Shown piece after piece: positions 1-17,158 of a DNA stretch of 64,000 nucleotides. The notes beneath the pieces were generated by a model. The model saw only the letters and a program-made list of their open reading frames with translations. It did not search any database and had not been told where the DNA came from. Numbering within the stretch: the first letter of the stretch is position 1; each line of letters begins with the position of its first letter. The stretch lies in sequence record OM632671.1, one strand, 5' to 3'. Source of the stretch: Escherichia phage BEU50. The position numbers were made by a program, and so were the translations under genes.

Positions 1-54
1 CCCTTTTTGCTTTAGATTTTGGATGATAGAATACCTTCATAACGAGGAGACAAC

Positions 55-1875: not shown

Positions 1876-2672
1876 TGAATTATCGTAAAATTTATGATAA
1901 ACTTATCGCTGCGGCTAAAAACCGCAGCATTATTCCTAATTATACTGAGACACATCATATATTGCCAAAATCTATGGGTGGGAGTAATGATAAATCAAAT
2001 CTAGTTAAAATGACCCCTAGAGAGCATTTTATCGCCCATTTATTGCTTTATAAAATTCATAAGAACCGTTCTATGCTTATGGCTATTAGAGCTTTTTACA
2101 TGGGAGCTAGAAATTCTAGAGATTATGATTGGCTTAAACAAGAATTCTCTAAAGAGCACTCTAGATTTATGAAAGAATGGATTGCTAAAAACGGCAACCC
2201 ATTTAAAGGTAAAAAACATACTAAAGCAACAAGAGAATTAATGTCACATATTGCTTCACAACGTATAGGCGAATTAAATCCATTTTATGGTAAAACTCAT
2301 ACGCAAGAAGCAATAGATAAAATAATACAGGCCAACAAGTTATCTTGGGAGAATGGGCGAAAAGCACCTGTAAAAACAAAAGAACACCAGGATAAAATAA
2401 CTAAATCAAGAATGGAAACATTTAAAACAAAAGGATTTAAACCATACACTCCTAGGTCGGAAGAAACTAAAGCTAAGACTAGAGAGTTGTATAAATCTAA
2501 ATATGAAAGAAGGCCTATAAGAATCACAAGTGTAAAAACAGGTGAAACTATTGATTTTAACTATCTTTATGAATTAAGAGAGTATTTAGATATAGGGTCT
2601 TCTAATATATTGAAAGCATTAAATAATCCTAACAGAACCTGCAAAGGTTATAAAATGTGTTGGATGTCCTAA
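1875..2672 (+). CDS. HNH homing endonuclease (I-TevIII/MobA-like)
   Basis: ATG overlaps gene 39 stop (TAATG); N-terminus MNYRKI shared with intron ORF at 28074; HHILPKSMGG HNH motif. Confidence 0.75.
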   Translation: MNYRKIYDKLIAAAKNRSIIPNYTETHHILPKSMGGSNDKSNLVKMTPREHFIAHLLLYKIHKNRSMLMAIRAFYMGARNSRDYDWLKQEFSKEHSRFMKEWIAKNGNPFKGKKHTKATRELMSHIASQRIGELNPFYGKTHTQEAIDKIIQANKLSWENGRKAPVKTKEHQDKITKSRMETFKTKGFKPYTPRSEETKAKTRELYKSKYERRPIRITSVKTGETIDFNYLYELREYLDIGSSNILKALNNPNRTCKGYKMCWMS

Positions 2673-2696
2673 GCTCCTTCGGGAGCTTCATTTTAA
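2672..2696 (+). terminator. rho-independent terminator hairpin AGCTCC-TTCG-GGAGCT plus T-run
   Basis: perfect 6 bp stem, UUCG loop, followed by TCATTTT. Confidence 0.6.
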
Positions 2697-2714
2697 TTTT
2701 AATAAGGCTTAATT

Positions 2715-3815
2715 ATGAAAGTTATGTTTATCCCATCTCGTGCAGTCCCATTTAATCCTGACCGTGTACAAGGTGGTCTTGAAGCGGTTCATTTGAACGT
2801 GTTGAAATATTTAGTTTCTATCGGTGCCGATATTGATTATATCGGCTTTGATAATGACACGTTTGGTGACTGGAAAGTTACACACCATCCTGTTGGTCAT
2901 CTGACTAAATTCAGTCTAGGTATGAGTTATACTATGGCTCGTAAGATTGTTGAACTAGCCGGCATCCATGAATACGATTTTGTTGTTACTATGGAACCGA
3001 CTAAACTAACCGTTCAGGCAATTAAAGACGCAGGTCTCTCTAAAGTTCATAAGAATTTTATGGCAACACCATTTGAACCAGTATCTCGTGGCATTGTTCA
3101 AATTTGGGACCAGACTATTCAAATTCATAAGAATGGCGGTAAGAGTTATGCTCCTACTAAAGCCTTCCGTGAATTTGAACGCAAATATTGTTATATGACT
3201 TCAGGTCTGACTGACAAAATCGATTATGATTATTGGCGAGCAAATCCGTTGTTTGAAGCCGAAGATTATCCGGTTATTTGTTTGACTGAAAAGCCAGAAG
3301 TTCTCCCGGCAACTGATTTGATTATTAGTGCTCAACGTTATGACACTAAGATGCGTCGCACTGATGTTGCTCTTGAAGCAATTAAAGCACTAGGCGAAAA
3401 TGGTGTAGGATACTGTCCTAGTAAATGGGCACCACCAGCTAAATATCCTGTTATTATTGATGCTCCACACAGTGAAATCATGGAACGTCTTAAAACAGCT
3501 AAAGCACTTATTAATACGTGTCCTGACACAGGTACGGTAGAGAATAGTTCTATTGAAGCCATCTCTAAAGGTGTCCCTGTAATCCAGTTAGTTTTTAAGG
3601 ATTATCCTCATGCGACATTTGAATACGACCCAGATACTGTGCGTGTAGAAATTGATTCCTCTACTCCTAAGAAAGAAGTAGTTGCGCTTTACACAAAAGC
3701 TGTATTAGAATTCACTGACACATACGAAGCTCGAGTTAAACGTGCTGAAGCAGTATGGAAGAAGTATAATCGAGATGCAGTTGTTGCGATGTGGGATAAA
3801 ATCTTCACAGCGTAA
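2715..3815 (+). CDS. hypothetical protein, possible GT-B type glycosyltransferase
   Basis: 366 aa ORF; C-terminal E-x7-EA-x3-G-x-PVI pattern (ENSSIEAISKGVPVI); not at a position of any T4 gene I recognise. Confidence 0.5.
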   Translation: MKVMFIPSRAVPFNPDRVQGGLEAVHLNVLKYLVSIGADIDYIGFDNDTFGDWKVTHHPVGHLTKFSLGMSYTMARKIVELAGIHEYDFVVTMEPTKLTVQAIKDAGLSKVHKNFMATPFEPVSRGIVQIWDQTIQIHKNGGKSYAPTKAFREFERKYCYMTSGLTDKIDYDYWRANPLFEAEDYPVICLTEKPEVLPATDLIISAQRYDTKMRRTDVALEAIKALGENGVGYCPSKWAPPAKYPVIIDAPHSEIMERLKTAKALINTCPDTGTVENSSIEAISKGVPVIQLVFKDYPHATFEYDPDTVRVEIDSSTPKKEVVALYTKAVLEFTDTYEARVKRAEAVWKKYNRDAVVAMWDKIFTA

Positions 3816-3831
3816 ATCCTGAATAGCCTGA

Positions 3832-3882
3832 GGCACTATTACACATAAGATGATAGATTATATGGTCTTTAGTAATAGTGCC
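3832..3882 (+). other. long stem-loop (11 bp perfect stem, about 29 nt loop)
   Basis: GGCACTATTAC ... GTAATAGTGCC inverted repeat in the intergenic gap; no T-run. Confidence 0.4.
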
Positions 3883-3907
3883 CTAGGAATCTACTGAAGA
3901 GAATATT

Positions 3908-4108
3908 ATGAGAACATATAACGTGGACTTGGAACTTTTTGATAAAGCAGTGCTCCGGGAATTCCGGCTTATCCAAAGATTTTTTGATATCGAATCAGCA
4001 GAGTCCTTTAAAGAACGCTTTAAAGAAATTCGATATAAAATACAAACCGATACAGCTACTAAAGAAGAACTTCTTGAAGTAGCAGAAATTTTTAAACGTA
4101 ACTTGTGA
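3908..4108 (+). CDS. small hypothetical protein (rIIA.1 position)
   Basis: 66 aa ORF with ATG and upstream purine-rich RBS. Confidence 0.5.
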   Translation: MRTYNVDLELFDKAVLREFRLIQRFFDIESAESFKERFKEIRYKIQTDTATKEELLEVAEIFKRNL

Positions 4109-4120
4109 TGAGAGAAAAAC

Positions 4121-6178
4121 ATGATTATCGAAACGGCTAAAGAAACGATTATTGGTTCTGGTGGTAAGAGCACAGCATTCACTATTCAAGGCAATAGCAA
4201 AGTTTATAAGATTTTGTCTAATGACCTTTATACAAACAAAGAATTGGCTTGTGTACGTGAATTAATCACAAACTGTATCGATGGACAAATTCTTAATGGT
4301 TGCACTGATAAGTTTATTGTTCAGGCTCCAGGTCGTTTAGACCCACGTTTTGTAGTTCGAGACTTTGGTCCTGGTATGAGTGATTTCACCATTCGAGGTA
4401 ATGACGAAGAGCCAGGAATCTATAACTCATATTTTGCTTCAACTAAAACATCGAGTAATGATTTCATTGGTGGATTCGGACTCGGCTCTAAAGCTCCATT
4501 AGCATATACTGATACGTTTAACATTACTTCTTATCATAATGGTGAAGTTCGTGGTTATGTAATTTATCAAGATGACAGTGGTCCACAAATTAAGCCAACC
4601 TTTGTAGATAAGATGGGCCCTGATGACCGTACGGGTGTAGAAGTAGTTGTGCCTGTTAACCCGGAAGATTTTGAAAAGTTCGCATCTGAAATTGCGTATG
4701 TTATGCGTCCTCTCGGCGATATTGCAGAAGTTCGTGGTGTTAAAGATATCAAATACTTCCCGGAATTCGATGATGTTTATTTAGCCAAGGAAGCTCCATG
4801 GGGTGAACGTGGTAATATCATGGCTGTTTATGGTGGTATTGTATATCCAATCGGAAGTGTTATTAAAGAACAAACATGGATGATGACGCGATGCACTACA
4901 GCTTATATCAAATTCCCTATGGGTGAACTAGATGTAGCCCCGTCTCGTGAAGCATTGTCATTTGATAAACGTACAGTAGCAAATATTCATAAACGTGTTG
5001 CAGAAATTGATGCAAAATTATTTGCTGAAGATTCTAAGAAATGGATTGATTGTGAATATCCACGTCATGTATTCCGTGAAATCGATTCTCTTGGTTACTC
5101 TGCTCGTAAATACATGGAAAAAGCCGGTTCTAATATTGAATCACTGAAATATTCTAAAGAACAACTAACTTATTCTGAGTTGTACAAACGTTTTAAAATG
5201 GGACCTGAATGGTGCAACCTTGGCGTTGTATATGATATCGTTTCAGATCCACGACTTCGTCGTATTCGTGAAAGCGGAAGCTCGTCTGCAACTATTTCAA
5301 TTAATAGCCTGCTAGGTATTAGTCGTAAGCATATTGATATTGTTATTGACGATGTGAAAGGCCGCGTACCAATGATGCGTGCTCTGAACGATGCTTTGAC
5401 TTCCACCGATGCATCAACACTCGTTGATAAGGTTCCTTCCGGACGGGGTAGTAGCGTATTATTCATTAACCCGGAAGATGAAGTTGCAATGAAACTTCTG
5501 GAACGATTAAAGGTTATTTTCGCTGGTGATAGCCTTAAATTTTATAAGACCTCTGAAATTCTTGCATTAGTTAAACCATGGATTGAAGTTAAAGAACGTT
5601 CATCGCAGCCTCGTCCTAAATCCCCAAGTGCTCATCGGTTCTTTAAGAATGAAAACGATGTTTGGGTATCAGAAGATCTCTTTATTCCGGCCGGTAAAGC
5701 TGATGAGATTCAAGGTTATGTTGTAATTCGTAATCGTTCTAACGCTGAATGTCTTGACGCAGATAAAGGTTGGTTGAACTATGATTCTAATTTCTTGACT
5801 CGTATTGCTGATTTGTCAGGTATTAAAGAGTTCACTGTAGTCCGTCCACAGATTGCTAAGAAAGTTCGTAAACTTGGTGAAGTAGAATGCTTGTTCGAAA
5901 AATCAATTAATGACTATATTACGCTAATTGATAAAGTGGATTATGATGAGTATGTATCACCAAGTCGTAGAGCACAGCCTTATTTGAATCATATTACTCG
6001 TAACGAAGAGCTTAACTTCCTTAGTAAGTATTTTAGCTCTAAGAACAAAGAAATCAGTAAAGACTTTGCAAAACTCTCAACAGTAAATAATCGCTGGGGA
6101 TGGAATCGATTCGCAGGTGCTGATAACAGAGACCTGAACAGGAAGTTAGAATTGTGCTTAAAGAGGACTCTTTTGTAG
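4121..6178 (+). CDS. rIIA: rIIA membrane-associated protein, 3-prime end ends at a junction
   Basis: 685 aa; GHKL-like boxes ([19 protein letters not shown]); about 40 aa shorter than T4 rIIA as I recall it. Confidence 0.85.
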
Positions 6179-6429
6179 ACCCAGAAATTTTCTACGGTTT
6201 GCGTGCCCGTGAAATTGAAATTGAGCCACAACCTACAGTTAAAATTGAAGGTGGTCAACACCTGAACGTTAACGTTCTGCGTCGTGAAACTCTGGAAGAT
6301 GCAGTTAAGCATCCGGAAAAATATCCGCAATTGACTATCCGTGTATCCGGTTATGCAGTTCGCTTTAACTCTCTGACTCCGGAACAGCAGCGCGACGTTA
6401 TCGCTCGTACCTTTACCGAGAGTTTGTAA
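6154..6429 (+). CDS. GrcA/YfiD-like autonomous glycyl radical cofactor, 5-prime end probably truncated
   Basis: C-terminal RVSGYAVRF glycyl-radical motif, near-identical to E. coli GrcA C-terminal half; only a GTG start available. Confidence 0.75.
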
Positions 6430-6650
6430 TGGCAAAGATAATTATTGAAGGTTCTGAAGATGTGCTAAATGCTTTCGCCGAGTGGTTTAGTAATTCAGGT
6501 GAACAACAATTTAATGAAGCGTGGAATATGGGTGATATTGATGGAATTTATCCTACGACAGAAATTTCTGTTCAGGGATATGGCATTCATGAACCTATTC
6601 GTTTAGTTGAATACGATTTATGTACTGGCGAGGAAGTCAAATATGATTGA
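6429..6650 (+). CDS. hypothetical small protein (vs.5 position)
   Basis: 73 aa ORF, ATG overlaps upstream stop. Confidence 0.5.
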   Translation: MAKIIIEGSEDVLNAFAEWFSNSGEQQFNEAWNMGDIDGIYPTTEISVQGYGIHEPIRLVEYDLCTGEEVKYD

Positions 6651-6909
6651 AGATATTAAGGGTTATAAACCACATACCGACGAAAAAATCGGTAAAGTAA
6701 ATGCTATTAAAGACGCTGAAGTTCGTTTAGGACTTATCTTTGATGCTTTATACGATGAATTTTGGGAAGCATTTGATAGCTGTGAAGATGATGAACTCGC
6801 GAAGAATTACGCCGAAAGCCTCGATCAGTTAACTATTGCTAAAACGAAACTCAAAGAAGCAAGTATGTGGGCTTGCCGTGCTGTGTTCCAACCAGAGGAA
6901 AAATACTAA
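6643..6909 (+). CDS. hypothetical small protein, candidate Vs.4/Acb2-like
   Basis: 88 aa from ATG 6643 with RBS GAGGAAG; assigned by synteny (second ORF before regB) only. Confidence 0.4.
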
Positions 6910-7187
6910 TGGCTCAATTAAGCGCAGGGTTTGGTTATGAGTATTATACTGCCCCTCGTCGTGTATCTGTTGCTCCTAAGAAAATTCAAAGTCTTGATGA
7001 TTTCCAGGAAGTAGTCCGTAACGCTTTCCAGGACTATGCACGCTATCTTAAAGAAGATTCACAGGACTGTCTCGAAGAAGATGAAATTGCTTACTATACG
7101 CAGCGTCTTGAACAGCTCAAAAATCTACATGAGGTTCGTGCCGAAGTTTCAAAGTCTATGAATAAATTGATTAGATTTAAAGAATAA
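6909..7187 (+). CDS. hypothetical small protein (vs.3 position)
   Basis: 92 aa from ATG 6909 with RBS AGAGGAA. Confidence 0.5.
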
Positions 7188-7189
7188 CT

Positions 7190-7219
7190 GTTTACTTTTC
7201 CTCTTGACTGTGGTATAAT
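7190..7219 (+). promoter_or_regulatory. T4-type early promoter
   Basis: GTTTAC, 18 nt spacer, TATAAT; upstream of regB. Confidence 0.65.
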
Positions 7220-7246
7220 TTTTCTATCAGTTAAGAGGAGAATAAC

Positions 7247-7708
7247 ATGACTATCAACACAGAAGTTTTTATCCGTCGAAATAAGCTTCGTCGTCACTTT
7301 GAGTCGGAGTTTCGTCAAATTAACAATGAGATTCGTGAGGCATCAAAAGCAGCAGGGGTCTCATCGTTTCATCTAAAATATTCTCAGCATCTTCTTGATC
7401 GTGCAATTCAACGGGAGATTGATGAGACATATGTTTTTGAATTATTCCACAAAATAAAAGACCATGTTTTAGAAGTTAATGAATTCCTGAGTATGCCTCC
7501 GCGTCCTGACATTGATGAGGATTTTATTGATGGGGTTGAATACCGTCCTGGACGTTTAGAAATCACAGATGGAAATCTTTGGCTTGGATTTACAGTTTGT
7601 AAACCTAATGCGAAGTTCAAAGACCCGTCGCTTCAATGCAGGATGGCAATTATCAATAGTCGTCGTTTACCAGGAAAGGCTTCTAAAGCAGTAATTAAAA
7701 CTCAATGA
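7247..7708 (+). CDS. regB: RegB site-specific endoribonuclease
   Basis: 153 aa, RBS AAGAGGAG; sequence matches RegB as I recall it. Confidence 0.8.
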   Translation: MTINTEVFIRRNKLRRHFESEFRQINNEIREASKAAGVSSFHLKYSQHLLDRAIQREIDETYVFELFHKIKDHVLEVNEFLSMPPRPDIDEDFIDGVEYRPGRLEITDGNLWLGFTVCKPNAKFKDPSLQCRMAIINSRRLPGKASKAVIKTQ

Positions 7709-7715
7709 GGTAAGC

Positions 7716-8261
7716 ATGAGAAAAGCACTACTCGCTGGTCTATTGGCCATTTCAATGATGGCACATAGCTCCGAGCATACTTTCAGTAATGTCCAACTCG
7801 ATAACATGCGTTACGCGTATCAATTCGGGGAACAATTTTCTAAGGATGGAAAATATAAAACACACAAAAACATCCACAAGAGCGGATTGGGTCATATAAT
7901 GGCTGCTATTTTGTGGCAAGAAAGCTCTGCCGGAGTTAATTTAAAATCTAAACCAAAGCATCACGCCTACGGAATGTTCCAAAATTATTTGCCTACTATG
8001 CGAGCGAGAGTTAAGGAACTTGGTTATAATATGACCGATGCTGAAATAAAAAGAATGTTGAATAAACGATCCAATTCAGCTTCCTGGGCGTACATTGAAC
8101 TTTCTTATTGGTTAAATATACATAAGGGCGATATAAGAAAAGCAATATCCTCTTATAATTCGGGATGGAATGTTAAAGCAGGTTCTAAATATGCTTCTGA
8201 AGTCCTAGAAAAGGCTAATTACCTTAAAAATAATAAACTTTTGGAAATAGTAAATGACTAA
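7716..8261 (+). CDS. secreted lytic transglycosylase-like protein (SLT domain)
   Basis: signal peptide; ESSAG, YGMFQ and SYNSGW motifs resembling SLT catalytic motifs. Confidence 0.6.
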   Translation: MRKALLAGLLAISMMAHSSEHTFSNVQLDNMRYAYQFGEQFSKDGKYKTHKNIHKSGLGHIMAAILWQESSAGVNLKSKPKHHAYGMFQNYLPTMRARVKELGYNMTDAEIKRMLNKRSNSASWAYIELSYWLNIHKGDIRKAISSYNSGWNVKAGSKYASEVLEKANYLKNNKLLEIVND

Positions 8262-8595
8262 AATTTTGGTTTTATGTATAGGATTAATTTCATTTTCTGC
8301 GTTAGCAGATACATCATATACTGAAATTAGAGAGTATGTAAACCGTACTGCAGCGGATTATTGCGGGAAAAATAAAGCATGCCAAGCTGAATTTGCGCAG
8401 AAATTAATATATGCATATAAAGACGGAGAAAGAGATAAATCAAGCAGATACAAAAATGATACATTGTTAAAACGATATGCTAAAAAGTGGAATACCTTAG
8501 AATGTTCAGTTGCGGAGGAGAAAGATAAAGCCGCTTGTCATTCAATGGTTGACCGTTTAGTAGATTCTTATAATCGAGGATTGAGTACTAGATGA
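8254..8595 (+). CDS. small secreted protein (vs position)
   Basis: 113 aa with N-terminal signal peptide (…FSALA). Confidence 0.5.
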   Translation: MTKILVLCIGLISFSALADTSYTEIREYVNRTAADYCGKNKACQAEFAQKLIYAYKDGERDKSSRYKNDTLLKRYAKKWNTLECSVAEEKDKAACHSMVDRLVDSYNRGLSTR

Positions 8596-9071
8596 TTGTA
8601 AAATATATCAAGGGCGATATTGTCGCCCTATTTCTTCAAGGTAATATTATTGCGCACGGGTGCAATTGCTTCCACACAATGGGCTCTGGCGTAGCAGGTC
8701 AATTAGCAAGAGCCTATCCCAAAATTTTAGAAATAGATAAAACCACTACCGAGTACGGTTCTCGTGATAAATTAGGCGATATGTCTATTGTTTTTAAACA
8801 TAGTCCTACGGGATTTGGTATATGCTATAACCTGTATACACAATACGAACCGGGTCCTAATCTTGATTATGGTGCTTTAGTAAACTGCATGATAGAATTA
8901 AATCTACAGGCAGAAACCCTTTTGTTTAAACCAGTAATTTACATTCCACGCATAGGTTGCGGTATTGCTGGTGGTGATTGGGATAAGGTTTCTAAATTAA
9001 TCGACATGTTTACTCCTGATATTGATTTAATAGTGGTGGATTATGAAAGTACATTACCCGCATCCGTTTGA
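8592..9071 (+). CDS. macro domain protein (ADP-ribose binding/hydrolase family)
   Basis: 159 aa; IAHGCNCFHTMGSGVAGQ motif typical of macro domains. Confidence 0.7.
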   Translation: MIVKYIKGDIVALFLQGNIIAHGCNCFHTMGSGVAGQLARAYPKILEIDKTTTEYGSRDKLGDMSIVFKHSPTGFGICYNLYTQYEPGPNLDYGALVNCMIELNLQAETLLFKPVIYIPRIGCGIAGGDWDKVSKLIDMFTPDIDLIVVDYESTLPASV

Positions 9072-9255
9072 TCCTAAAAACAAAGTGGAAATTATTCGTC
9101 AATGGGAACGCATTTGCCGTACTAAATGCCCAATTAATAGTCCACATGATGTAGATAAAGACTATATTGGAACATTCGTTGAATATACCTTTATTGATAG
9201 GAAAGGTCGTAAACAACATGTAGAAGAATATTGTTTAAAGGTTACATGGTTATGA
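9043..9255 (+). CDS. hypothetical small protein
   Basis: 70 aa ORF, ATG start, overlaps macro gene end. Confidence 0.35.
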   Translation: MKVHYPHPFDPKNKVEIIRQWERICRTKCPINSPHDVDKDYIGTFVEYTFIDRKGRKQHVEEYCLKVTWL

Positions 9256-9458
9256 GCCAAACTAGTATTCTTAAAAATGCCCATTGTGAAAAGTGTAAGT
9301 GGCCGATTGTTTTTGCTTTATGTAATGATGAAATGGCTTGTGATTTCGATTATTGGTGCTATTGTTCTAATAAAGGATGCATCAATCATAAAGGTGAAGG
9401 ATTTTATTCAGGATTTTATCCTTATCCTGATTTCGTTAAAGAAGGTAAACCGAAATGA
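9246..9458 (+). CDS. hypothetical Cys-rich small protein
   Basis: 70 aa from ATG 9246; CEKC…C…C…C pattern. Confidence 0.4.
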   Translation: MVMSQTSILKNAHCEKCKWPIVFALCNDEMACDFDYWCYCSNKGCINHKGEGFYSGFYPYPDFVKEGKPK

Positions 9459-9628
9459 ATAGTTTTGAGTTACAATATGAAGTGTTACGTGAGCTTGATA
9501 ATTTAATTGAACTCGCTGTCAATAAAGGTTTTGCCATTGGAATCGGTCAAAAAGATACTGGTCATTTAACTATGGAAATATTTAAGCAAAAGCGAATTAT
9601 TTTAAAACTCCTGGAAATTAATATATGA
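9455..9628 (+). CDS. hypothetical small protein
   Basis: 57 aa, ATGA overlap with upstream stop. Confidence 0.3.
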   Translation: MNSFELQYEVLRELDNLIELAVNKGFAIGIGQKDTGHLTMEIFKQKRIILKLLEINI

Positions 9629-9819
9629 GTCTGAGTAAAGAATAAAAAGATAAATTGTTTGAGCTTATCCATGAACTTCTAGATGAGCATGCAGAAGCAA
9701 ACACCTTTTATGATGAATACGGCCCGCTATCTCCCGAACAGCAAGAAGAATTTGCTGATCGGTTTGATAAGAAAGAAAACGAATTAATAGCTTATGTGAA
9801 TATGCTTTAAGAAGGTGAT

Positions 9820-10401
9820 ATGGCGAGTTTAATTTTTACTTACGCAGCAATGAATGCTGGAAAATCTGCTTCTCTTTTGACTGCTGCACATAATTATAAA
9901 GAACGCGGAATGAGTGTATTAGTTCTTAAGCCTGCTATTGATACTCGCGATTCTGTCTGTGAAGTCGTTTCTCGCATTGGAATTAAGCAGGAAGCGAATA
10001 TTATTACAGATGATATGGATATTTTCGAGTTCTATAAATGGGCTGAAGCACAAAAAGATATTCATTGCGTATTTGTAGATGAAGCTCAGTTTTTAAAAAC
10101 TGAACAGGTGCATCAATTAAGTCGAATTGTTGATACATATAATGTTCCTGTTATGGCTTATGGATTAAGGACTGATTTCGCTGGAAAATTGTTTGAAGGT
10201 TCTAAAGAACTTTTAGCGATTGCAGATAAACTTATTGAACTAAAGGCAGTTTGTCATTGCGGCAAAAAAGCGATTATGACAGCTCGATTAATGGAAGATG
10301 GAACACCAGTTAAAGAAGGTAATCAAATCTGTATTGGTGATGAAATTTATGTTTCTTTGTGTAGAAAACATTGGAACGAATTAACTAAAAAGCTCGGTTA
10401 G
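9820..10401 (+). CDS. tk: thymidine kinase
   Basis: 193 aa; P-loop AAMNAGKS; C-terminal Cys cluster. Confidence 0.9.
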   Translation: MASLIFTYAAMNAGKSASLLTAAHNYKERGMSVLVLKPAIDTRDSVCEVVSRIGIKQEANIITDDMDIFEFYKWAEAQKDIHCVFVDEAQFLKTEQVHQLSRIVDTYNVPVMAYGLRTDFAGKLFEGSKELLAIADKLIELKAVCHCGKKAIMTARLMEDGTPVKEGNQICIGDEIYVSLCRKHWNELTKKLG

Positions 10402-10443
10402 TGCAAAAGTTATAAATAGGTTTATCTAACTAAAGGGGTATAT

Positions 10444-10656
10444 ATGCTACAATTAACTGAAAAGCAACTTCGCAATCTTACTGTTCTTCAATTAGATGAA
10501 ATTCGTAGGGAAGTTGGAAATATCATTTCAGCTTTGCGTCGAGAAGTATCACTCAACCAATCTCCGGCAGACTATACTAGATTGCGAAATTTTGAAAAAT
10601 ACCTTGATAAAGTTAAGGCCGTGCATCGGCATAAAGTAAATACAGGACAAAAATGA
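10444..10656 (+). CDS. hypothetical small protein
   Basis: 70 aa ORF in tk-nrdC region. Confidence 0.45.
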
Positions 10657-10668
10657 TAGGAGGCCTTT

Positions 10669-10962
10669 ATGGCCTTAAAAGCAACGGCACTATTTGCCAT
10701 GCTAGGATTAGCGTTTGCTTTATCTCCATCGATTGAAGCGAATGTCGATCCTCATTTTGATAAATTTATGGAATCTGGTATTAGACACGTTTATATGCTT
10801 TTTGAAAATAAAAGCGTAGAATCATCTGAACAGTTCTATAGTTTTATGCGAACGACTTATAAAAATGACCCGTGCTCTTCTGATTTTGAATGTATAGAGC
10901 GAGGCGCGGAGATGGCACAATCATACGCTAGAATTATGAACATTAAATTGGAGACTGAATGA
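10669..10962 (+). CDS. hypothetical secreted small protein
   Basis: 97 aa, RBS AGGAGG, N-terminal signal peptide. Confidence 0.5.
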   Translation: MALKATALFAMLGLAFALSPSIEANVDPHFDKFMESGIRHVYMLFENKSVESSEQFYSFMRTTYKNDPCSSDFECIERGAEMAQSYARIMNIKLETE

Positions 10963-11345
10963 AATTCAGCGACTTTTCACAAAGTGGAAAACCTTCAAAG
11001 GCAGATGAATACTTAGGTTTATTAATGGCTGCACAAGCTTATTTTCATTCTGCGCATTTTGAAACTAAAAGTTATGCTAGACACAAAGCATACGATTTTA
11101 TTTTCTCCGAGTTGCCAGATTTGATTGATAAATTTGGTGAGCAATATTTGGGGTATTCTGGTAGAAAATACACACCTTCAATTCCAGATGCTAGTAAACT
11201 TCCTACCGACACAATTAAAATGATTGATCGCATACTAGACCAATCTAACAGCATTTATAAAGAAATGCCTCCAGCCATTCAAAGCACGATAGATGATATC
11301 ACTGGGATGTTTTATCAGAGTAAATATCTTCTTTCCCTCGAATAA
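10959..11345 (+). CDS. hypothetical protein
   Basis: 128 aa ORF, overlapping start with upstream stop. Confidence 0.5.
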
Positions 11346-11350
11346 CGTTA

Positions 11351-11372
11351 GTCTCCTTCGGGAGACTTTTTT
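11351..11372 (+). terminator. rho-independent terminator GTCTCC-TTCG-GGAGAC plus T6
   Basis: perfect hairpin followed by TTTTTT. Confidence 0.7.
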
Positions 11373-11382
11373 CATTTTACCG

Positions 11383-11412
11383 GTTTACTTTCCATTTGAG
11401 CTGTGATACTAT
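11383..11412 (+). promoter_or_regulatory. T4-type early promoter
   Basis: GTTTAC, about 18 nt, TACTAT. Confidence 0.55.
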
Positions 11413-11440
11413 ACAACCATCGGATAAAGAGGAGAACATC

Positions 11441-11629
11441 ATGAAAATTGAAGCACTTAATCAAGAAGGAAATATCTACGTCATCATTAATGGTGATTTT
11501 TTCGTCGACATGGATGAAGTTACCAGTGAAGAACTTGTAGAACTTCTTAAGAAACGTTATAATATGTGTGATGAAGTTGCAACTCACATGGCGTGTGCAA
11601 TATTCTCTCTTTCATATGTGGTGGAATAA
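11441..11629 (+). CDS. hypothetical small protein
   Basis: 62 aa from ATG 11441 with RBS AAGAGGAG. Confidence 0.45.
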
Positions 11630-11645
11630 TGAAAACTGAAAAGCA
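11620..11645 (+). repeat. 26 nt direct repeat copy 1 (GGTGGAATAATGAAAACTGAAAAGCA)
   Basis: identical 26-mer spanning stop/RBS/start; second copy at 12010. Confidence 0.8.
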
Positions 11646-11832
11646 AGCGGATAAAATTAAGGAATTAGTGGCTTCAATTCGTAAAGCAGATGAAGAGCTG
11701 ATTGACTTTGCTTGGTATTCATCGGGTATTTCGAATAAAGGCATTAAAGACTTTGAAACTAAAGTTGATAATGCTTTAGAAGCGTTAGATATGTTTCTTG
11801 ATGAAATTATCGATCATAATACGAGAGTTTAA
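11629..11832 (+). CDS. hypothetical small protein (MKTEKQ start)
   Basis: 67 aa from ATG inside the 26 nt repeat. Confidence 0.45.
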   Translation: MKTEKQADKIKELVASIRKADEELIDFAWYSSGISNKGIKDFETKVDNALEALDMFLDEIIDHNTRV

Positions 11833-11834
11833 GT

Positions 11835-12029
11835 ATGCTAACACGTGAACAGTTTGAAAAAATCATTAAATTAGCACGTGATGTTGAAATAGATTCATAT
11901 CAATTAGCAGTTGAGCATTGTGAAGGATATTCATACGATGGTATAGAATCAGCTAAAAGGGATTTGGATAAATCTAAAGCTAAGTTAGTCCAATATCTTG
12001 AAATGATTAGGTGGAATAATGAAAACTGA
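11835..12029 (+). CDS. hypothetical small protein
   Basis: 64 aa ORF. Confidence 0.45.
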   Translation: MLTREQFEKIIKLARDVEIDSYQLAVEHCEGYSYDGIESAKRDLDKSKAKLVQYLEMIRWNNEN

Positions 12030-12035
12030 AAAGCA
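12010..12035 (+). repeat. 26 nt direct repeat copy 2
   Basis: identical to 11620-11645. Confidence 0.8.
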
Positions 12036-12192
12036 GATGTTTTTAATGAAACTAATTGAAGAATATGCTAATGCAGTTTCTGACTATGAGCGTTCTTCTC
12101 GGGAAAGAGGTACAGCTTTCGCCAAAGAAGAAATGAAAATCATGGTTGATGCTCACACAAAGCTTCAGAATTTTATTGAAAACAACATTTAA
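12019..12192 (+). CDS. hypothetical small protein (MKTEKQ start)
   Basis: 57 aa from ATG inside repeat copy 2. Confidence 0.35.
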   Translation: MKTEKQMFLMKLIEEYANAVSDYERSSRERGTAFAKEEMKIMVDAHTKLQNFIENNI

Positions 12193-12194
12193 CG

Positions 12195-12224
12195 GTTTAC
12201 AAGTTGGCAAGGTTATGGTATAGT
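12195..12224 (+). promoter_or_regulatory. T4-type early promoter
   Basis: GTTTAC, 18 nt, TATAGT. Confidence 0.55.
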
Positions 12225-12359
12225 AATCTTGTCAACTGTCAAGGAGAAGAGAATGAAAGTTTTGTTTGTTGTGTATGTAATGATTCAATATAATTACCCA
12301 ATGTTTACTTATAATCTGGTGAACAACATTATTGATATTATTCAAAGGAGTATGTAATT

Positions 12360-12590
12360 GTGAGTGAGTCGAAGAGAATCAATATGAAACGATTAGTATT
12401 AGAAGTTAGTCCGCTTTTTGGTGAATTGGCTATAGAAAAAGTAAATAACATGTATCGTTTGACGCAAGAAGACGATATGCTATATTTTACGCCTAGTGAA
12501 ATCATTCATTTAACCCAAATTGAATATCCTTATACTGATAAAATAGTAAGTATCAATGATGAGCACAAAATTCATTGCTCGTTTGATTGA
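12360..12590 (+). CDS. hypothetical small protein
   Basis: 76 aa; GTG start 8 nt after AAGGAG (alternative ATG at 12384). Confidence 0.4.
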   Translation: MSESKRINMKRLVLEVSPLFGELAIEKVNNMYRLTQEDDMLYFTPSEIIHLTQIEYPYTDKIVSINDEHKIHCSFD

Positions 12591-12680
12591 AGTTGAAGCC
12601 CAAATTGCAGAACACACCAAATTGTTAAAAGCTCTTAATGCAAAAGCAAATGGTTTACGTAATGCTATTGAGGTATTGAA

Positions 12681-12995
12681 ATGAAAAAGCGTCTATTAGA
12701 AGACATTGCAGCTTCAAGTAATTCCAGTTTAATTAAAATTATTATGGCCGGTGAAGAAGACGATCTGGAAATGCGTGGAAAGATTTATGGTTGTGATGAT
12801 TATAGCAGCCCTATTAATTGGGATTCTGTAATGGTCATGGTTGAACGTCGCGAAAGGGCTTCTAAAAACGTTCCTAATTGCCCTGAATGTGGAACTGAAC
12901 AGGTGCAATTAGTCCATTGGCAGACTAATAATCTTCGTTATAAATGTCGCCATTGTAAACACCGATTTGACCGAGAAGAAAATGACAAAGCGTAA
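12681..12995 (+). CDS. hypothetical zinc-ribbon protein
   Basis: 104 aa; CPECG…CRHCKH. Confidence 0.5.
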
Positions 12996-13224
12996 AGAAT
13001 ATATGGAGACCGCCGAAAAGGCAGTCCGTGAATTAGCAATAGCTTATTATAATGAACACGGTAAATTTCCTGATAGATACAGCGTGCTTAAATCTGCTTT
13101 AACTCGTTCATATAAAAATATGCTATCAGAAGTAAGTGATATTATATACAAACATAAAGAACAAACGGGCCAAAGTCTTGATTACGACGAGACTTTTAAA
13201 CAAGTACTAGGAATTAAGGAATAA
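12982..13224 (+). CDS. hypothetical small protein
   Basis: 80 aa from ATG 12982. Confidence 0.45.
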
Positions 13225-13225
13225 T

Positions 13226-13489
13226 ATGTTTAAAGTATATGGTTATGATAGCAACATCCATAAATGTGTGTATTGCGATAATGCAAAACGTCTTTTGACC
13301 GTGAAGAAACAGCCGTTTGAATTTATCAACATTATGCCGGAAAAAGGTGTTTTTGATGATGAGAAAATCGCTGAGCTTCTGACTAAACTAGGTCGTGATA
13401 CTCAAATCGGCTTAACAATGCCTCAGGTATTTGCTCCTGATGGAAGTCATATTGGTGGATTTGACCAATTGCGGGAATACTTTAAATGA
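13226..13489 (+). CDS. nrdC: glutaredoxin/thioredoxin NrdC
   Basis: 87 aa; CVYC active site. Confidence 0.85.
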   Translation: MFKVYGYDSNIHKCVYCDNAKRLLTVKKQPFEFINIMPEKGVFDDEKIAELLTKLGRDTQIGLTMPQVFAPDGSHIGGFDQLREYFK

Positions 13490-13701
13490 TTCTCGAAGGA
13501 ACTGATTATATCCATGATTACCGCGGAAGCGCGGTATATGTAGGTGATGAAGTTGCAGTTTACTACGGGTATGGAACTTTGATGACAGCCAAGGTTATTC
13601 AAATTAAAAATAATCGTGCTAAACTCGAAGTTTATTATTCTAACGGCGAAAAGTCTATTTCTAAGTGGAAATACGGCGATTGTATGGTCAAACTGGGGTA
13701 A
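13486..13701 (+). CDS. hypothetical small protein
   Basis: 71 aa, ATGA overlap with nrdC stop. Confidence 0.45.
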   Translation: MILEGTDYIHDYRGSAVYVGDEVAVYYGYGTLMTAKVIQIKNNRAKLEVYYSNGEKSISKWKYGDCMVKLG

Positions 13702-13703
13702 AT

Positions 13704-13874
13704 ATGATTTACGATATTAGTGCAGCAAGAGCTCCATCAATGGTTGCTATTCCAGCTGAAGAATTAGATCGTCTTCATAAAATTGAAGAACTTCTGTGGG
13801 AAATTGAATCTGATTTGCCATCAGGATTAGAATCCTGGATTGATTATGAAGAACTTAATAAGCTTCGGGGTTAA
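13704..13874 (+). CDS. hypothetical small protein
   Basis: 56 aa from first ATG of the 13665 ORF. Confidence 0.3.
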   Translation: MIYDISAARAPSMVAIPAEELDRLHKIEELLWEIESDLPSGLESWIDYEELNKLRG

Positions 13875-13996
13875 ACCCTGGTGGGCGGCTAGATGGGAAA
13901 CTGTAGAGCCAGAGCCGGAAGAACCGGTTTACACTGATGAAGAAACAGTATATAATGAACCAACGATAAATGACTTAATTGATATGGAGATGGGAC

Positions 13997-14482
13997 ATGA
14001 TTACAGTAGATAAGTGGTTTAGAATTAATCGTGTTGATACAGGGCTATGTAATTACTGGCCGGAACTTAGTGCAGGTACTGTCTTTAAAGTTCGTGAACT
14101 TGCAAAAGAATGTGAAGATGATATAGAACCTGATACTGGAATTATTGAAATTGAACTTTCTGATGGAAAGATTATTAACATCTATGATAAGCCAATTACG
14201 TATTGGTGCTTGTGGAATACTGAATCCGTTGAAAATGGCGAAATTGAAGAAGTTGTAGAGAGAACTAGCCAAGATGCTCAGAAGCCTAAAGCCGCTTTTC
14301 AAGGTGAACGTATTTCATACGCATTAGCTAAATTAGCTGCACAAGAAAATAACGATGGTTATGAAGGAAATTTAATGCAAGCTGCCGCAGAGTACATTGA
14401 ATGGCTTGAAACTCAAATTTCTTTTTCTGACCAAATGATTCGGCAATATAAGCGATTGCATCAAATGTTTTACAATACTTGA
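13997..14482 (+). CDS. pin: Pin-like protein (protease inhibitor position)
   Basis: 161 aa from ATG 13997 with RBS GGAGA; length and position match T4 pin. Confidence 0.55.
   Translation: MITVDKWFRINRVDTGLCNYWPELSAGTVFKVRELAKECEDDIEPDTGIIEIELSDGKIINIYDKPITYWCLWNTESVENGEIEEVVERTSQDAQKPKAAFQGERISYALAKLAAQENNDGYEGNLMQAAAEYIEWLETQISFSDQMIRQYKRLHQMFYNT
14408..14482 (+). repeat. direct repeat copy A (3-prime end of pin)
   Basis: two sub-blocks (26 nt and 48 nt) recur at 14483-14510 and 14648-14695. Confidence 0.75.
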
Positions 14483-14695
14483 AAAAACTCAAAATTCTTT
14501 TTCTGACAAGGCATTTTAATGAAAACCGAATTGGTTTATACTGAAAAGTTAAATGGCGGTAAGGTTTGGAAACTTTTTATTAAAGGACATTCTACGGACC
14601 CTCATATGACCACTTGCGTAGGAACCTATTCTCGTCCTACTAAAAAGATGATTCGACAGTATAAACGATTGCATCGAATGTTTTACAATACTTAA
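14483..14695 (+). repeat. direct repeat copy B flanking a 58-codon ORF
   Basis: AAAAACTCAAAATTCTTTTTCTGACA at 14483 and ATGATTCG…TACAATACTTAA at 14648. Confidence 0.75.
14519..14695 (+). CDS. hypothetical small protein sharing Pin C-terminal 15 aa
   Basis: 58 aa ending MIRQYKRLHRMFYNT, the same tail as the pin ORF. Confidence 0.4.
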   Translation: MKTELVYTEKLNGGKVWKLFIKGHSTDPHMTTCVGTYSRPTKKMIRQYKRLHRMFYNT

Positions 14696-14704
14696 ATAAT
14701 AAAT

Positions 14705-14735
14705 ACCCTTATCTATTTAAGGTAAGGGTTTTATT
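14705..14735 (+). terminator. hairpin plus T-run before gene 49
   Basis: ACCCTTA … TAAGGGT stem followed by TTTTATT. Confidence 0.5.
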
Positions 14736-17150: not shown

Positions 17151-17158
17151 AAGTCCTC

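What the first reader, a model, noticed from the sequence alone, without database searches (positions are those of the whole stretch)
7716..8595. Two adjacent early genes encode secreted proteins, one with lytic transglycosylase motifs
ORF 7716-8261 has a signal peptide and SLT-like motifs (ESSAG, YGMFQ, SYNSGW). The next ORF (8254-8595) also begins with a signal peptide. Early-expressed periplasmic murein-modifying proteins could act in superinfection exclusion or lysis timing rather than end-stage lysis.
Basis: partly seen in the sequence, partly recalled or inferred. Interest (0 to 1): 0.35.

Follow-up and report, generated by a model that had tools for sequence, protein, structure and literature searches.

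The report
T4 vs.1–vs secreted gene pair
These are the phage T4 genes vs.1 (a secreted enzyme resembling cell-wall-cutting lytic transglycosylases, a similarity already published) and vs; the interesting point is that vs is labelled a modifier of a cytoplasmic tRNA synthetase, yet looks like an exported protein that always travels with vs.1.

Summary
ORF 7716-8261 (181 aa) and ORF 8254-8595 (113 aa) are real, overlap by 8 nt, and both begin with Sec-type signal peptides. The three SLT motifs sit at residues 69, 85 and 146.

The genes are orthologues (97-99% identical) of T4 vs.1 and vs, inside the conserved block regB-vs.1-vs-tk.4-tk-rI. Vs.1 matches Pfam SLT above the curated cut-off. Its catalytic Glu69 is invariant across three phage families. 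A confident AlphaFold model (pLDDT 89) matches MltD, Slt, goose lysozyme and phage phi6 P5. This SLT similarity was already published (Nolan 2006), so that part is known.

Every full-length Vs homologue carries a signal peptide and four invariant cysteines. Vs was directly downstream of vs.1 in 27 of 27 loci. Published transposon data show that insertions in both genes, but not in their neighbours, are depleted.

Best reading: an early-transcribed, translationally coupled periplasmic module made of a lytic-transglycosylase-like enzyme and a small disulfide-bonded partner. The proposed roles in superinfection exclusion or lysis timing are untested. The conflict with the classical cytoplasmic role of Vs is unresolved and can be tested directly.

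The parts
7191..7219 (+). sigma-70-type promoter-like site (TTTACT, 17 nt, TG-TATAAT) upstream of regB; candidate early promoter of the regB-vs.1-vs-tk.4 unit
   Evidence: Consensus scan, 10 of 12 matches with extended -10 TG. This is a consensus match only; promoter-like sites are not enriched in the region (19 found against 29 expected).
7247..7708 (+). regB endoribonuclease gene, first gene of the block
   Evidence: Pfam REGB_T4 E 1.4e-68; phrog_1323 E 6.7e-78; same position as in T4.
7716..8261 (+). vs.1 orthologue: 181-aa precursor of a secreted SLT/GH23-like lytic-transglycosylase-type protein (mature about 163 aa, 18.8 kDa, pI 9.7, no Cys)
   Evidence: phrog_600 E 5.6e-69; Pfam SLT 23.4 bits, above the gathering score of 21.3; 99% identical to T4 vs.1; AF2 pLDDT 89; Foldseek hits to MltD, Slt, goose lysozyme, GH23 chitinase and phi6 P5.
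7716..7769 (+). predicted Sec signal peptide of Vs.1 (residues 1-18, MRKALLAGLLAISMMAHS, cleavage after AHS)
   Evidence: In homologues the sequence varies but the hydrophobic character is kept. This segment has low pLDDT (57), while the rest of the model is confident.
7920..7934 (+). motif I, E69-S-S-A-G; E69 is the predicted catalytic glutamate at the C-terminal end of helix 59-70
   Evidence: E69 is invariant in 37 T4-like sequences and across Straboviridae, Felixounavirus and Ackermannviridae; helix boundaries.
7968..7982 (+). motif II, Y-G-M-F-Q (equivalent to GLMQ), in the beta-hairpin after the catalytic helix
   Evidence: G86, Q89 and N90 invariant; strands at 84-85 and 90-91 in the model.
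8151..8168 (+). motif III, S-Y-N-S-G-W (equivalent to AYNAG)
   Evidence: Y147, N148 and G150 invariant.
8254..8261 (+). 8-nt overlap ATGACTAA between the vs.1 stop and the vs start (translational coupling)
   Evidence: The gap is -8 to +3 nt in 27 of 27 vs loci and -8 to +7 nt in 53 of 62 vs-containing vs.1 loci.
8254..8595 (+). vs orthologue ('valyl-tRNA synthetase modifier' family, phrog_1256 / PF26829): 113-aa precursor; predicted mature protein about 95 aa, 11 kDa, four helices
   Evidence: phrog_1256 E 5.2e-40; 97% identical to the T4-type sequence P0078; AF2 model of low confidence (pLDDT 61) with helices 20-37, 41-59, 70-84 and 89-110.
8254..8307 (+). predicted Sec signal peptide of Vs (residues 1-18, MTKILVLCIGLISFSALA, cleavage after ALA)
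   Evidence: A K/R n-region, hydrophobic core and AxA site are present in all full-length members of 67 clusters; the segment carries indels and is variable in sequence.
8362..8382 (+). C37-x5-C43 at the helix 1 / helix 2 turn of Vs (Cys codons 8362-8364 and 8380-8382)
   Evidence: Both Cys invariant down to 25% identity; read directly from the sequence.
8503..8538 (+). C84 ... C95 at the helix 3 / helix 4 turn of Vs (Cys codons 8503-8505 and 8536-8538)
   Evidence: Both Cys invariant; 60 of 67 clusters have exactly four Cys after residue 22.
8592..9071 (+). tk.4 macrodomain gene (T4 AdfM), downstream neighbour with an ATGA overlap to vs; same transcription unit but a separate function
   Evidence: Pfam Macro E 1.3e-7; phrog_335; T4 tk.4 = anti-DarTG2 factor AdfM (bioRxiv 10.1101/2025.11.20.689424).

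Best explanation
The two ORFs are the T4-type genes vs.1 and vs. They are transcribed early as part of the regB-vs.1-vs-tk.4 unit and are translationally coupled through an 8-nt overlap.

Vs.1 is made with a cleavable Sec signal peptide and exported to the periplasm. There it folds as a single-domain, family-1 (GH23, Slt70-type) lytic-transglycosylase-like enzyme with Glu69 as the catalytic acid. It most likely makes limited cuts in host murein during the infection, rather than acting as the end-stage endolysin.

Vs is also exported. It becomes an approximately 11-kDa four-helix protein stapled by two disulfides, and it most likely acts in the same compartment as Vs.1, as a partner or regulator of it. 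This pairing would resemble periplasmic glycosidase-inhibitor or effector-immunity gene pairs.

Shown here: gene identity, the SLT-type motifs and predicted fold, signal-peptide and cysteine conservation, strict gene coupling, and the early context.

Inferred: actual export, enzymatic activity, the Vs-Vs.1 functional link, and the physiological role. The role is stated only as a contribution to phage fitness, strongest in minimal medium.
For: - Identity and context: 99% nucleotide identity to Tequatrovirus genomes. Same gene order as T4.
- SLT membership: Pfam SLT above cut-off, and 15 of 15 relatives hit it. E69, G73, G86, Q89, N90, Y147, N148 and G150 are invariant across three phage families.
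- Fold: AF2 pLDDT 89, with E69 at the end of helix 59-70 followed by a beta-hairpin. Foldseek top hits are MltD, goose lysozyme, GH23 chitinase, Slt, phi6 P5 and T7 gp16 and viral SLT / LT_GEWL proteins.
- Export signals: found by a crude scan that otherwise picks only rI and the spanins. They are conserved in character in all homologues.
- Vs cysteines: four invariant Cys down to 25% identity, and in 60 of 67 clusters.
- Coupling: vs.1 lies directly upstream of vs in 27 of 27 loci. The vs family also follows vs.1 in Jiaodavirus, Krischvirus and Acinetobacter phages. 62 of 80 vs.1 loci carry vs.
- Shared phenotype: in T4 HIDEN-SEQ libraries grown in LB, mean reads per site are 26.6 for vs and 22.6 for vs.1, against 178-652 for regB, tk.4 and vs.3. 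In M9, vs falls by log2FC -2.19 (adjusted p 0) and vs.1 by -0.87 (p 0.0055, adjusted p 0.155). This repeats in phage Bas37: vs 23.5, vs.1 73.8, neighbours 325-620.
- Timing: early RNA and middle protein in T4. No late promoter lies before 10411.
Against: - Vs has a classical biochemical and genetic label: it binds and alters cytoplasmic valyl-tRNA synthetase (Muller and Marchin 1975 and 1977, as cited in PMC8076793). From my own recollection, vs mutations also change phage growth on valS(ts) hosts. That implies action in the cytoplasm.
- I could not read the primary papers, nor the paper that assigned this ORF to vs.
- The minimal-medium defect of a vs knockout fits an aminoacylation role at least as well as a cell-wall role.
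- Depletion of vs.1 insertions could be a polar effect on vs.
- vs.1 occurs without vs in Aeromonas phages, Ackermannviridae and Felixounavirus, so it does not need Vs.
- Fold matches to solved lytic transglycosylases are moderate (E 9e-3 or weaker, TM 0.45-0.54). Sequence searches of the PDB found nothing significant.
- The Vs model has low confidence and matches nothing.
- No signal-peptide predictor, complex prediction or activity assay was available.
Confidence: 0.5

Rival explanations
1. Only Vs.1 is a periplasmic murein enzyme. Vs is what the literature says it is: a small protein that binds host valyl-tRNA synthetase in the cytoplasm. Under this view its hydrophobic N-terminus is not an efficient export signal, or only part of the pool is exported, and its adjacency to vs.1 reflects shared early expression rather than shared function.
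For: The classical assignment is cited in PMC8076793 and in the HIDEN-SEQ preprint. A vs knockout is defective specifically in minimal medium, where amino-acid supply limits growth. vs.1 exists without vs in three phage groups. Gene order in T4-like early regions is conserved in general.
Against: A classic n-h-c signal peptide with AxA site occurs in every full-length member of 67 clusters, while the sequence of that segment drifts and carries indels. Four invariant Cys are unusual for a cytoplasmic 11-kDa protein. The family persists in Acinetobacter phages with a different host ValRS. The gap to vs.1 is -8 to +3 nt in 27 of 27 loci. I could not verify how the ORF was linked to the tau factor.
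Confidence: 0.3
2. Vs.1 is an auxiliary, holin-independent lysis enzyme: a secreted endolysin like Kayvirus Tgl, or a SAR-type endolysin. It would accumulate in the periplasm and contribute to end-stage lysis together with T4 lysozyme E, with Vs holding it in check until then.
For: It is a secreted SLT-type protein. Its relatives in Felixounavirus are annotated 'putative lysin'. Kayvirus Tgl is a signal-peptide-bearing lytic transglycosylase with an early-type promoter, and it lyses E. coli when exported (PMC7150955). In tootiki the homologue sits beside rIIA and rIIB.
Against: From general knowledge of T4, e-lysozyme mutants do not lyse despite carrying vs.1, so Vs.1 is not sufficient for lysis. 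The gene lies in the early region, away from e, t and the spanins, with no late promoter. Its hydrophobic core is only about 13 residues and is followed by an AxA site, which is typical of a cleaved signal peptide rather than a SAR anchor. Insertions are tolerated: the gene is 'Non-essential'.
Confidence: 0.12
3. The pair modifies murein, or senses events in the periplasm, in order to block superinfecting phages or to tune lysis inhibition, acting alongside Imm, Sp and RI.
For: It is made early and in the right compartment, like Sp (97 aa, signal peptide, two Cys) and RI. The locus lies about 2 kb from rI.
Against: There is no homology of Vs to Sp (hhalign probability 1.5%) or to RI. In the T4 transposon competition, sp and rI insertions are neutral while vs and vs.1 insertions are depleted. 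In the Bas37 libraries vs and vs.1 insertions are likewise depleted relative to their neighbours. The phenotypes therefore differ. No paper in the searchable library links vs.1 to exclusion.
Confidence: 0.08

Closest known systems
Phage T4 genes vs.1 (NP_049725) and vs (NP_049724)
   Same: Orthologues: 99% and 97% protein identity, with the same order regB-vs.1-vs-tk.4 and the same overlap. Everything said here applies to T4 itself.
   Different: Vs in the window is 113 aa, against 115 aa in T4; the two-residue indel lies in the c-region of the signal peptide, SALA versus SASASA. The window is a mosaic whose T4-like block starts only at 6157.
Family-1 lytic transglycosylases, GH23 (E. coli Slt70 catalytic domain, P. 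aeruginosa MltD and Slt), and goose-type lysozyme
   Same: E-S catalytic motif at the end of a helix, GLMQ-like and AYNAG-like motifs, lysozyme-like fold, periplasmic location.
   Different: Vs.1 is very divergent: Pfam E is only 5e-5, there is no significant PDB sequence hit and TM is 0.45-0.54. It is a single small domain with an extra N-terminal helix and hairpin (residues 25-47), with no lipid anchor and no LysM or superhelical domains. Activity is untested.
Small 'specialised' lytic transglycosylases of secretion and conjugation systems (VirB1, IpgF, P19; Lehnherr 1998 family, cited in PMC5384007)
   Same: Signal peptide plus a single SLT domain of about 160 aa, thought to open murein locally rather than lyse the cell. 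This comparison rests on my own knowledge.
   Different: No trans-envelope machine is encoded next to vs.1. The relationship was not tested here beyond the shared Pfam family.
Kayvirus Tgl (PMC7150955)
   Same: A phage-encoded lytic-transglycosylase-like protein with a signal peptide, transcribed from an early-type promoter and separate from the main endolysin.
   Different: Gram-positive host, an IsaA/SceD-like domain, shown to be lytic, and no coupled small partner gene.
T4 Spackle (Sp), a periplasmic inhibitor of the gp5 tail lysozyme
   Same: A small early T4 protein with a signal peptide and cysteines in the mature part, acting on a murein hydrolase in the periplasm (its function is from the record's annotation and general knowledge).
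   Different: No detectable homology to Vs. It is encoded elsewhere in the genome and is not coupled to an enzyme gene. sp insertions are neutral in conditions where vs insertions are not.
Periplasmic glycoside-hydrolase / immunity or inhibitor pairs (T6SS Tge-Tgi; Ivy, PliG, MliC)
   Same: An enzyme gene is immediately followed by a small exported protein gene; this is the logic proposed here for Vs.1-Vs. The comparison rests on my own knowledge.
   Different: There is no sequence or fold similarity of Vs to any of them. Those inhibitors are mostly beta-rich, whereas Vs is predicted to be all-helical. An interaction is not shown.

Membership tests
Pfam SLT (PF01464) / family-1 GH23 lytic transglycosylases | Significant match to the family profile | tested here: met
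   23.4 bits against a gathering score of 21.3, E 4.8e-5, residues 61-154. 15 of 15 diverse relatives match, best E 1.3e-7.
Pfam SLT (PF01464) / family-1 GH23 lytic transglycosylases | Catalytic Glu followed by Ser (E-S) at the C-terminal end of a helix | tested here: met
   E69-S70; E69 is invariant in 37 sequences and across three phage families; helix 59-70 in the AF2 model.
Pfam SLT (PF01464) / family-1 GH23 lytic transglycosylases | Motif II (G-L/M-M/F-Q) and motif III (A/S-Y-N-A/S-G) | tested here: met
   G86-M-F-Q89 and S146-Y-N-S-G150; G86, Q89, Y147, N148 and G150 invariant.
Pfam SLT (PF01464) / family-1 GH23 lytic transglycosylases | Lysozyme-like alpha-rich fold with a small beta-sheet after the catalytic helix | tested here: met
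   pLDDT 89. Foldseek probability 1.00 to MltD, Slt, goose lysozyme, GH23 chitinase and phi6 P5, but only E 9e-3 to 0.4 and TM 0.45-0.54. Viral SLT / LT_GEWL hits.
Pfam SLT (PF01464) / family-1 GH23 lytic transglycosylases | Cleaves the MurNAc-GlcNAc bond with formation of 1,6-anhydro-MurNAc | not testable with these tools
   Needs purified mature protein with muropeptide HPLC/MS or a zymogram.
Sec-exported periplasmic proteins (both ORFs) | N-terminal n-h-c signal peptide with a small-x-small cleavage site | tested here: met
   Heuristic only. The same rule finds just rI and the two spanins among the other ORFs of the window. The feature is conserved in homologues while the sequence drifts. 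SignalP was not available.
Sec-exported periplasmic proteins (both ORFs) | Actual export and signal-peptidase processing | not testable with these tools
   Needs fractionation, PhoA fusions or N-terminal mass spectrometry.
T4 Vs family (phrog_1256 / PF26829) | Sequence membership | tested here: met
   E 5.2e-40 over the full length. All 67 relatives carry PF26829 and come only from T4-like phages.
Functional label 'valyl-tRNA synthetase modifier' | Protein resides in the cytoplasm, where ValRS is | tested here: inconclusive
   Sequence features predict the opposite: a universal signal peptide and four invariant Cys. A prediction cannot overrule the classical biochemistry, which I could not re-read.
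Functional label 'valyl-tRNA synthetase modifier' | Binds ValRS and changes its properties | not testable with these tools
   Known only through citations.
Phage endolysins (canonical or SAR) | Late expression and/or linkage to holin and spanin genes; for the SAR type, a weakly hydrophobic N-terminal transmembrane domain that is not cleaved | tested here: not met
   Early block, no late promoter. The spanins lie 23 kb away. The hydrophobic core is about 13 residues and is followed by AHS|S.
Virion-associated lytic transglycosylases (T7 gp16, PRD1 P7 type) | SLT domain embedded in a structural, late protein without a signal peptide | tested here: not met
   Stand-alone 181-aa protein with a signal peptide in the early region. 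T7 gp16 is only a weak fold match.
T4 superinfection-exclusion / lysis-inhibition proteins (Sp, RI) | Homology to Sp or RI | tested here: not met
   hhalign probability 1.5% against Sp. BLASTP E 0.51 against RI.
Periplasmic enzyme-partner (inhibitor / immunity-like) gene pair | Conserved tight adjacency, with both products exported | tested here: met
   27 of 27 vs loci and 53 of 62 vs-containing vs.1 loci have a gap of -8 to +7 nt. Both products carry signal peptides.
Periplasmic enzyme-partner (inhibitor / immunity-like) gene pair | Physical interaction or modulation of activity | not testable with these tools

The most novel reading that the evidence does not exclude
Vs, carried for 50 years as the 'modifier of valyl-tRNA synthetase', would be primarily a Sec-exported, doubly disulfide-bonded periplasmic protein. 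Its real job would be to act with or on the lytic-transglycosylase-like Vs.1. The two would form a conserved early 'murein-remodelling module' of T4-like phages that matters for fitness, especially on slowly growing hosts. The ValRS binding would then be secondary, an extract artefact, or a property of the unprocessed precursor.
Probability: 0.35. Interest if true: 0.7.

Novelty: already known. Interest (0 to 1): 0.4.

Why it matters
Vs.1 is one of the few proteins conserved across nearly all T4-like phages, and it has relatives in Felix-O1-like and Vi1-like phages. It still has no tested function.

Vs has a textbook label whose biological meaning is admitted to be unknown.

If the pair really is a periplasmic enzyme-partner module, that would do three things. 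It would reassign a classical T4 gene. It would explain why both genes, unlike their neighbours, cost fitness when disrupted. It would add a third periplasmic murein-directed activity to T4 biology, alongside gp5/Sp and E. This has practical relevance for phage engineering and for lytic-enzyme discovery.

If the classical role holds, the finding is ordinary: two known genes, correctly annotated.

Tried and rejected
- Sequence searches of the PDB with Vs.1, with its 37-sequence profile and with Vs gave nothing significant.
- NCBIfam has no model for either protein.
- The Vs AlphaFold model is poor (pLDDT 61) and its Foldseek hits are noise. No fold assignment for Vs is made.
- Vs is not related to RI or to Spackle. 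A paralogue explanation is rejected.
- A lipoprotein reading of Vs (LVLC at residues 5-8) is rejected. The Cys lies too close to the N-terminus, residue -1 is Leu, and the Cys is not conserved.
- A SAR-anchor reading of Vs.1 is judged unlikely, because the core is short and an AxA site follows.
- The primary papers could not be read: Miller 2003 (PMC150520), Muller and Marchin 1975 (PMC354445), Valerie 1986. Literature searches for vs.1 with periplasm or regB terms found nothing.
- Chromosomal relatives of Vs.1 in Helicobacter sit among housekeeping genes, not in secretion or prophage clusters. They gave no functional clue.
- A MotA-box search found no middle promoter directly upstream of vs.1.
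Full report
**What is there**

The window carries two co-directional ORFs at exactly the stated coordinates. They are 7716-8261 (181 aa) and 8254-8595 (113 aa). The first stop and the second start overlap in ATGACTAA. The second stop overlaps the start of the next gene in ATGA.

Both proteins start with a basic residue or two, an uncharged hydrophobic core of 11-13 residues and a small-x-small site: MRKALLAGLLAISMMAHS|S and MTKILVLCIGLISFSALA|D.

No signal-peptide predictor was on hand, so I wrote a crude rule and ran it on all 130 ATG ORFs of at least 60 aa in the window. It flags six:
- the two ORFs of the finding;
- rI, the known periplasmic antiholin;
- an i-spanin/o-spanin pair at 31690-32333;
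- one spurious minus-strand ORF.

**Identity**

The region 7000-9200 is 98.5-99.3% identical to many Tequatrovirus genomes. PHROGs and Pfam give the following gene order, which matches phage T4:

| Coordinates | Gene |
|---|---|
| 7247-7708 | regB |
| 7716-8261 | vs.1 (phrog_600) |
| 8254-8595 | vs (phrog_1256, 'valyl tRNA synthetase modifier') |
| 8592-9071 | tk.4 (macrodomain) |
| 9820-10401 | tk |
| 10669-10962 | rI |

The finding is therefore the T4 gene pair vs.1 and vs.

**Vs.1 is SLT-like**

- ORF1 scores 23.4 bits against Pfam SLT, above the gathering score of 21.3. Fifteen relatives as distant as 31% identity all hit the same model.
- In a 37-sequence alignment, E69, G73, G86, F88, Q89, N90, Y147, N148 and G150 are invariant.
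- When homologues from Felixounavirus (tootiki) and Ackermannviridae (May) are added, E69, G86, Q89, N90, Y147, N148 and G150 stay invariant.
- An AlphaFold model is confident (pLDDT 89). It places E69 at the C-terminal end of helix 59-70, followed by a beta-hairpin that carries the GMFQ motif.
- Foldseek against the PDB returns MltD, goose-type lysozyme, a GH23 chitinase, Slt, phage phi6 P5 and T7 gp16. Probability is about 1, but E-values are modest (9e-3 and weaker) and TM is 0.45-0.54.
- Against viral models, Foldseek returns its own family and then SLT / LT_GEWL proteins.
- Plain sequence searches of the PDB are negative. This is a divergent member of the family.

The similarity is not new. 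Nolan et al. 2006 report the SLT match for vs.1 orthologues and cite earlier PSI-BLAST results for T4 (PMC1524935). Several database records already call it 'transglycosylase SLT domain-containing protein'.

**Distribution and context of vs.1**

tblastn finds the family in 2084 phage records. They include T4-like phages of Escherichia, Klebsiella, Aeromonas, Vibrio and Acinetobacter, plus Vi1-like and Felix-O1-like phages.

In all the loci I inspected the gene lies among early or nucleotide-metabolism genes, never in a lysis cassette. It follows regB in T4-like phages, rIIA and rIIB in tootiki, and gp46/47 in May. All homologues keep an N-terminal signal-like segment.

Weak chromosomal relatives (28-38% identity) exist in enterohepatic Helicobacter species. 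They sit among housekeeping genes and gave no functional clue.

**Timing**

A sigma-70-like site with an extended -10 lies at 7191-7219, ahead of regB. No MotA-type site lies directly ahead of vs.1. The first late TATAAATA box on this strand is at 10411, ahead of rI.1. In T4, RNA-seq and proteomics class both vs.1 and vs as early RNA with protein appearing in the middle period (PMC9697503 supplement). 'Early' is supported.

**Vs is the more interesting half**

The annotation says Vs modifies valyl-tRNA synthetase, a cytoplasmic enzyme. That label rests on 1970s work cited in PMC8076793. The sequence says otherwise:
- All four cysteines of the mature part (C37, C43, C84, C95) are invariant, even in homologues of 25-33% identity.
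- Of 67 clusters found with a profile, all carry PF26829 and come from T4-like phages. Sixty have exactly four Cys after residue 22. Every full-length member has a K/R, hydrophobic-core, AxA N-terminus. That segment drifts in sequence and carries indels, as signal peptides do.
- A low-confidence model predicts two helical hairpins, with the cysteine pairs at the turns. It matches nothing in the PDB.

**Coupling of vs to vs.1**

The ORF just downstream of vs.1 in Jiaodavirus, Krischvirus and an Acinetobacter Lazarusvirus is also a Vs-family member. PHROG E-values are 4e-37, 2e-33 and 2e-28, although tblastn with the window's Vs had missed two of these lineages.

In IMG/VR, 27 of 27 vs loci have vs.1 directly upstream with a gap of -8 to +3 nt. 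Of 80 vs.1 loci, 62 carry vs:
- 53 abut vs.1 (gap -8 to +7 nt);
- one has a 141-nt gap;
- eight have a gap of 471-1216 nt.

The Aeromonas, Vi1-like and Felix-O1-like phages lack vs.

**Phenotype from the literature**

A transposon screen of T4 classes both genes as non-essential. The read counts are telling.

In the T4 competition in LB, mean reads per site were:

| Gene | Reads per site |
|---|---|
| vs | 26.6 |
| vs.1 | 22.6 |
| regB | 179 |
| tk.4 | 290 |
| vs.3 | 652 |

In M9-glucose, vs drops further (log2FC -2.19, adjusted p 0). So does vs.1, but not significantly after correction (log2FC -0.87, p 0.0055, adjusted p 0.155).

The same local dip is seen in phage Bas37, whose Vs is identical to the window's: vs 23.5, vs.1 73.8, neighbours 325-620.

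A clean vs knockout plates poorly on M9-glucose. Insertions in sp and rI are neutral in the T4 LB versus M9 competition.

The shared dip could mean a shared function. It could also mean that insertions in vs.1 are polar on the coupled vs.

**Interpretation**

The best-supported reading is an early, translationally coupled pair of exported proteins. One is a lytic-transglycosylase-like enzyme that makes limited cuts in murein. The other is a small disulfide-stapled partner acting in the same compartment.

The steps that are shown are identity, motifs, fold, export signals, cysteine conservation, coupling and early context. Export itself, catalysis, any Vs-Vs.1 interaction and the physiological purpose are inferred.

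The main rival is that Vs really works on ValRS in the cytoplasm, as the classical genetics implies. As far as I recall, vs mutations change phage growth on valS(ts) hosts. Under that rival the adjacency would be incidental, and the minimal-medium phenotype fits it well.

I could not read the primary papers, nor the paper that tied this ORF to the tau factor. I therefore leave this as an open conflict rather than a correction.

An auxiliary-endolysin role like that of Kayvirus Tgl is possible but less likely. Nothing found here points to either, and Vs has no similarity to Sp or RI.

**Novelty and score**

The genes, their names and the SLT similarity are known, so the finding as written is an ordinary rediscovery of annotated T4 genes.

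One point goes beyond the annotation, as far as the searchable literature shows. Vs is universally predicted to be exported and disulfide-bonded, and it is locked to Vs.1. That makes the old question of what the 'ValRS modifier' is for directly testable. I rate overall interest at 0.4. The novel reading has a probability of about 0.35, and an interest of about 0.7 if true.

**Caveat on the window**

The window is a mosaic. Positions 1-6156 are 98-99% identical to RB69-like phages: gene 39, a homing endonuclease, rIIA.1 and rIIA. At 6156/6157 the sequence switches abruptly to T4-like, in the middle of both rIIA and vs.6. The finding lies wholly inside the T4-like block, so its evaluation is not affected.

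Noticed in passing
window 6156/6157 (context 4121-6429): Sharp chimeric breakpoint. Positions 1-6156 are 98-99% identical to RB69-like Mosigvirus genomes (gene 39 to rIIA). From 6157 the sequence is T4-like, starting in the middle of vs.6. The rIIA ORF (685 aa against about 725) loses its C-terminus and vs.6 loses about 30 N-terminal codons. No phage record covers the junction. It could be an assembly chimera, a natural or laboratory T4 x RB69 hybrid, or a spliced sequence.
   Followed up: partly
window about 17000 (query position 10918 of window:6100-31000): The best-matching T4-like genomes align window 17017-30870 (nrdA, nrdB, td, rnh, gene 32 region) as a separate place from 6100-17000. 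This suggests another break in colinearity with reference genomes.
   Followed up: no
window 8592-9071: The macrodomain gene tk.4 overlaps the vs stop (ATGA). A 2025 preprint shows T4 Tk.4 is AdfM, an anti-DarTG2 factor. Insertions in it are neutral in LB and M9, unlike insertions in vs and vs.1.
   Followed up: partly
window 8611-8629: An 8-bp GC-rich hairpin (AGGGCGAT-ATT-GTCGCCCT) followed by ATTTCTT, 16 nt after the vs stop and inside the 5' end of tk.4. Fold energy of the 66-nt stretch containing it (8585-8650) is -14.3 kcal/mol, z = -2.1. It could be a partial terminator or an RNA-stabilising end for the regB-vs.1-vs message, or it could be incidental to coding.
   Followed up: partly
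window 8873-8898 and 10411-10418: A MotA-box middle-promoter-like site (TGCTTTA, 13 nt, TAGAAT) lies inside tk.4, ahead of tk.3. A late-promoter box TATAAATA lies just upstream of rI.1. Such MotA-type sites are enriched in the window (13 against 2.1 expected).
   Followed up: no
window 31690-32046 and 32043-32333: An overlapping pair flagged by the signal-peptide scan. They are an i-spanin (phrog_739) and an o-spanin lipoprotein (LLVGC lipobox, phrog_812), the equivalents of T4 pseT.3 and pseT.2.
   Followed up: yes
L007 2363-2755; L009 2321-2746; L008 2417-2857: In Jiaodavirus and Acinetobacter Lazarusvirus, a third signal-peptide-bearing ORF (phrog_4957, 130-141 aa, unknown function) follows vs. 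This gives three consecutive exported proteins. Aeromonas phage AS-gz lacks vs but has a lipoprotein-like ORF (LSVYGC, phrog_9490) two genes downstream of vs.1.
   Followed up: partly
L120 3857-4609, L130 3905-4777 and 20 other Helicobacter / Campylobacterales loci: Chromosomal proteins of 250-290 aa in enterohepatic Helicobacter share 28-38% identity with the Vs.1 catalytic region (AAIAWQESCAG, SYNKG). They lie next to housekeeping genes (pgk, corA, flagellin, glyS), do not reach Pfam SLT at E < 0.001, and have no known function.
   Followed up: partly
L103, L105, L107-L109, L112-L114 (174-180 kb contigs): In one clade of large T4-like genomes, vs is separated from vs.1 by 471-1216 nt instead of abutting it. 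Something has been inserted between the two genes.
   Followed up: no
window 6154-6429: The truncated vs.6 remnant still encodes the glycyl-radical motif (RVSGYAVRF; Pfam Gly_radical E 1.5e-18). This is a GrcA-like spare part for pyruvate formate-lyase or NrdD.
   Followed up: no
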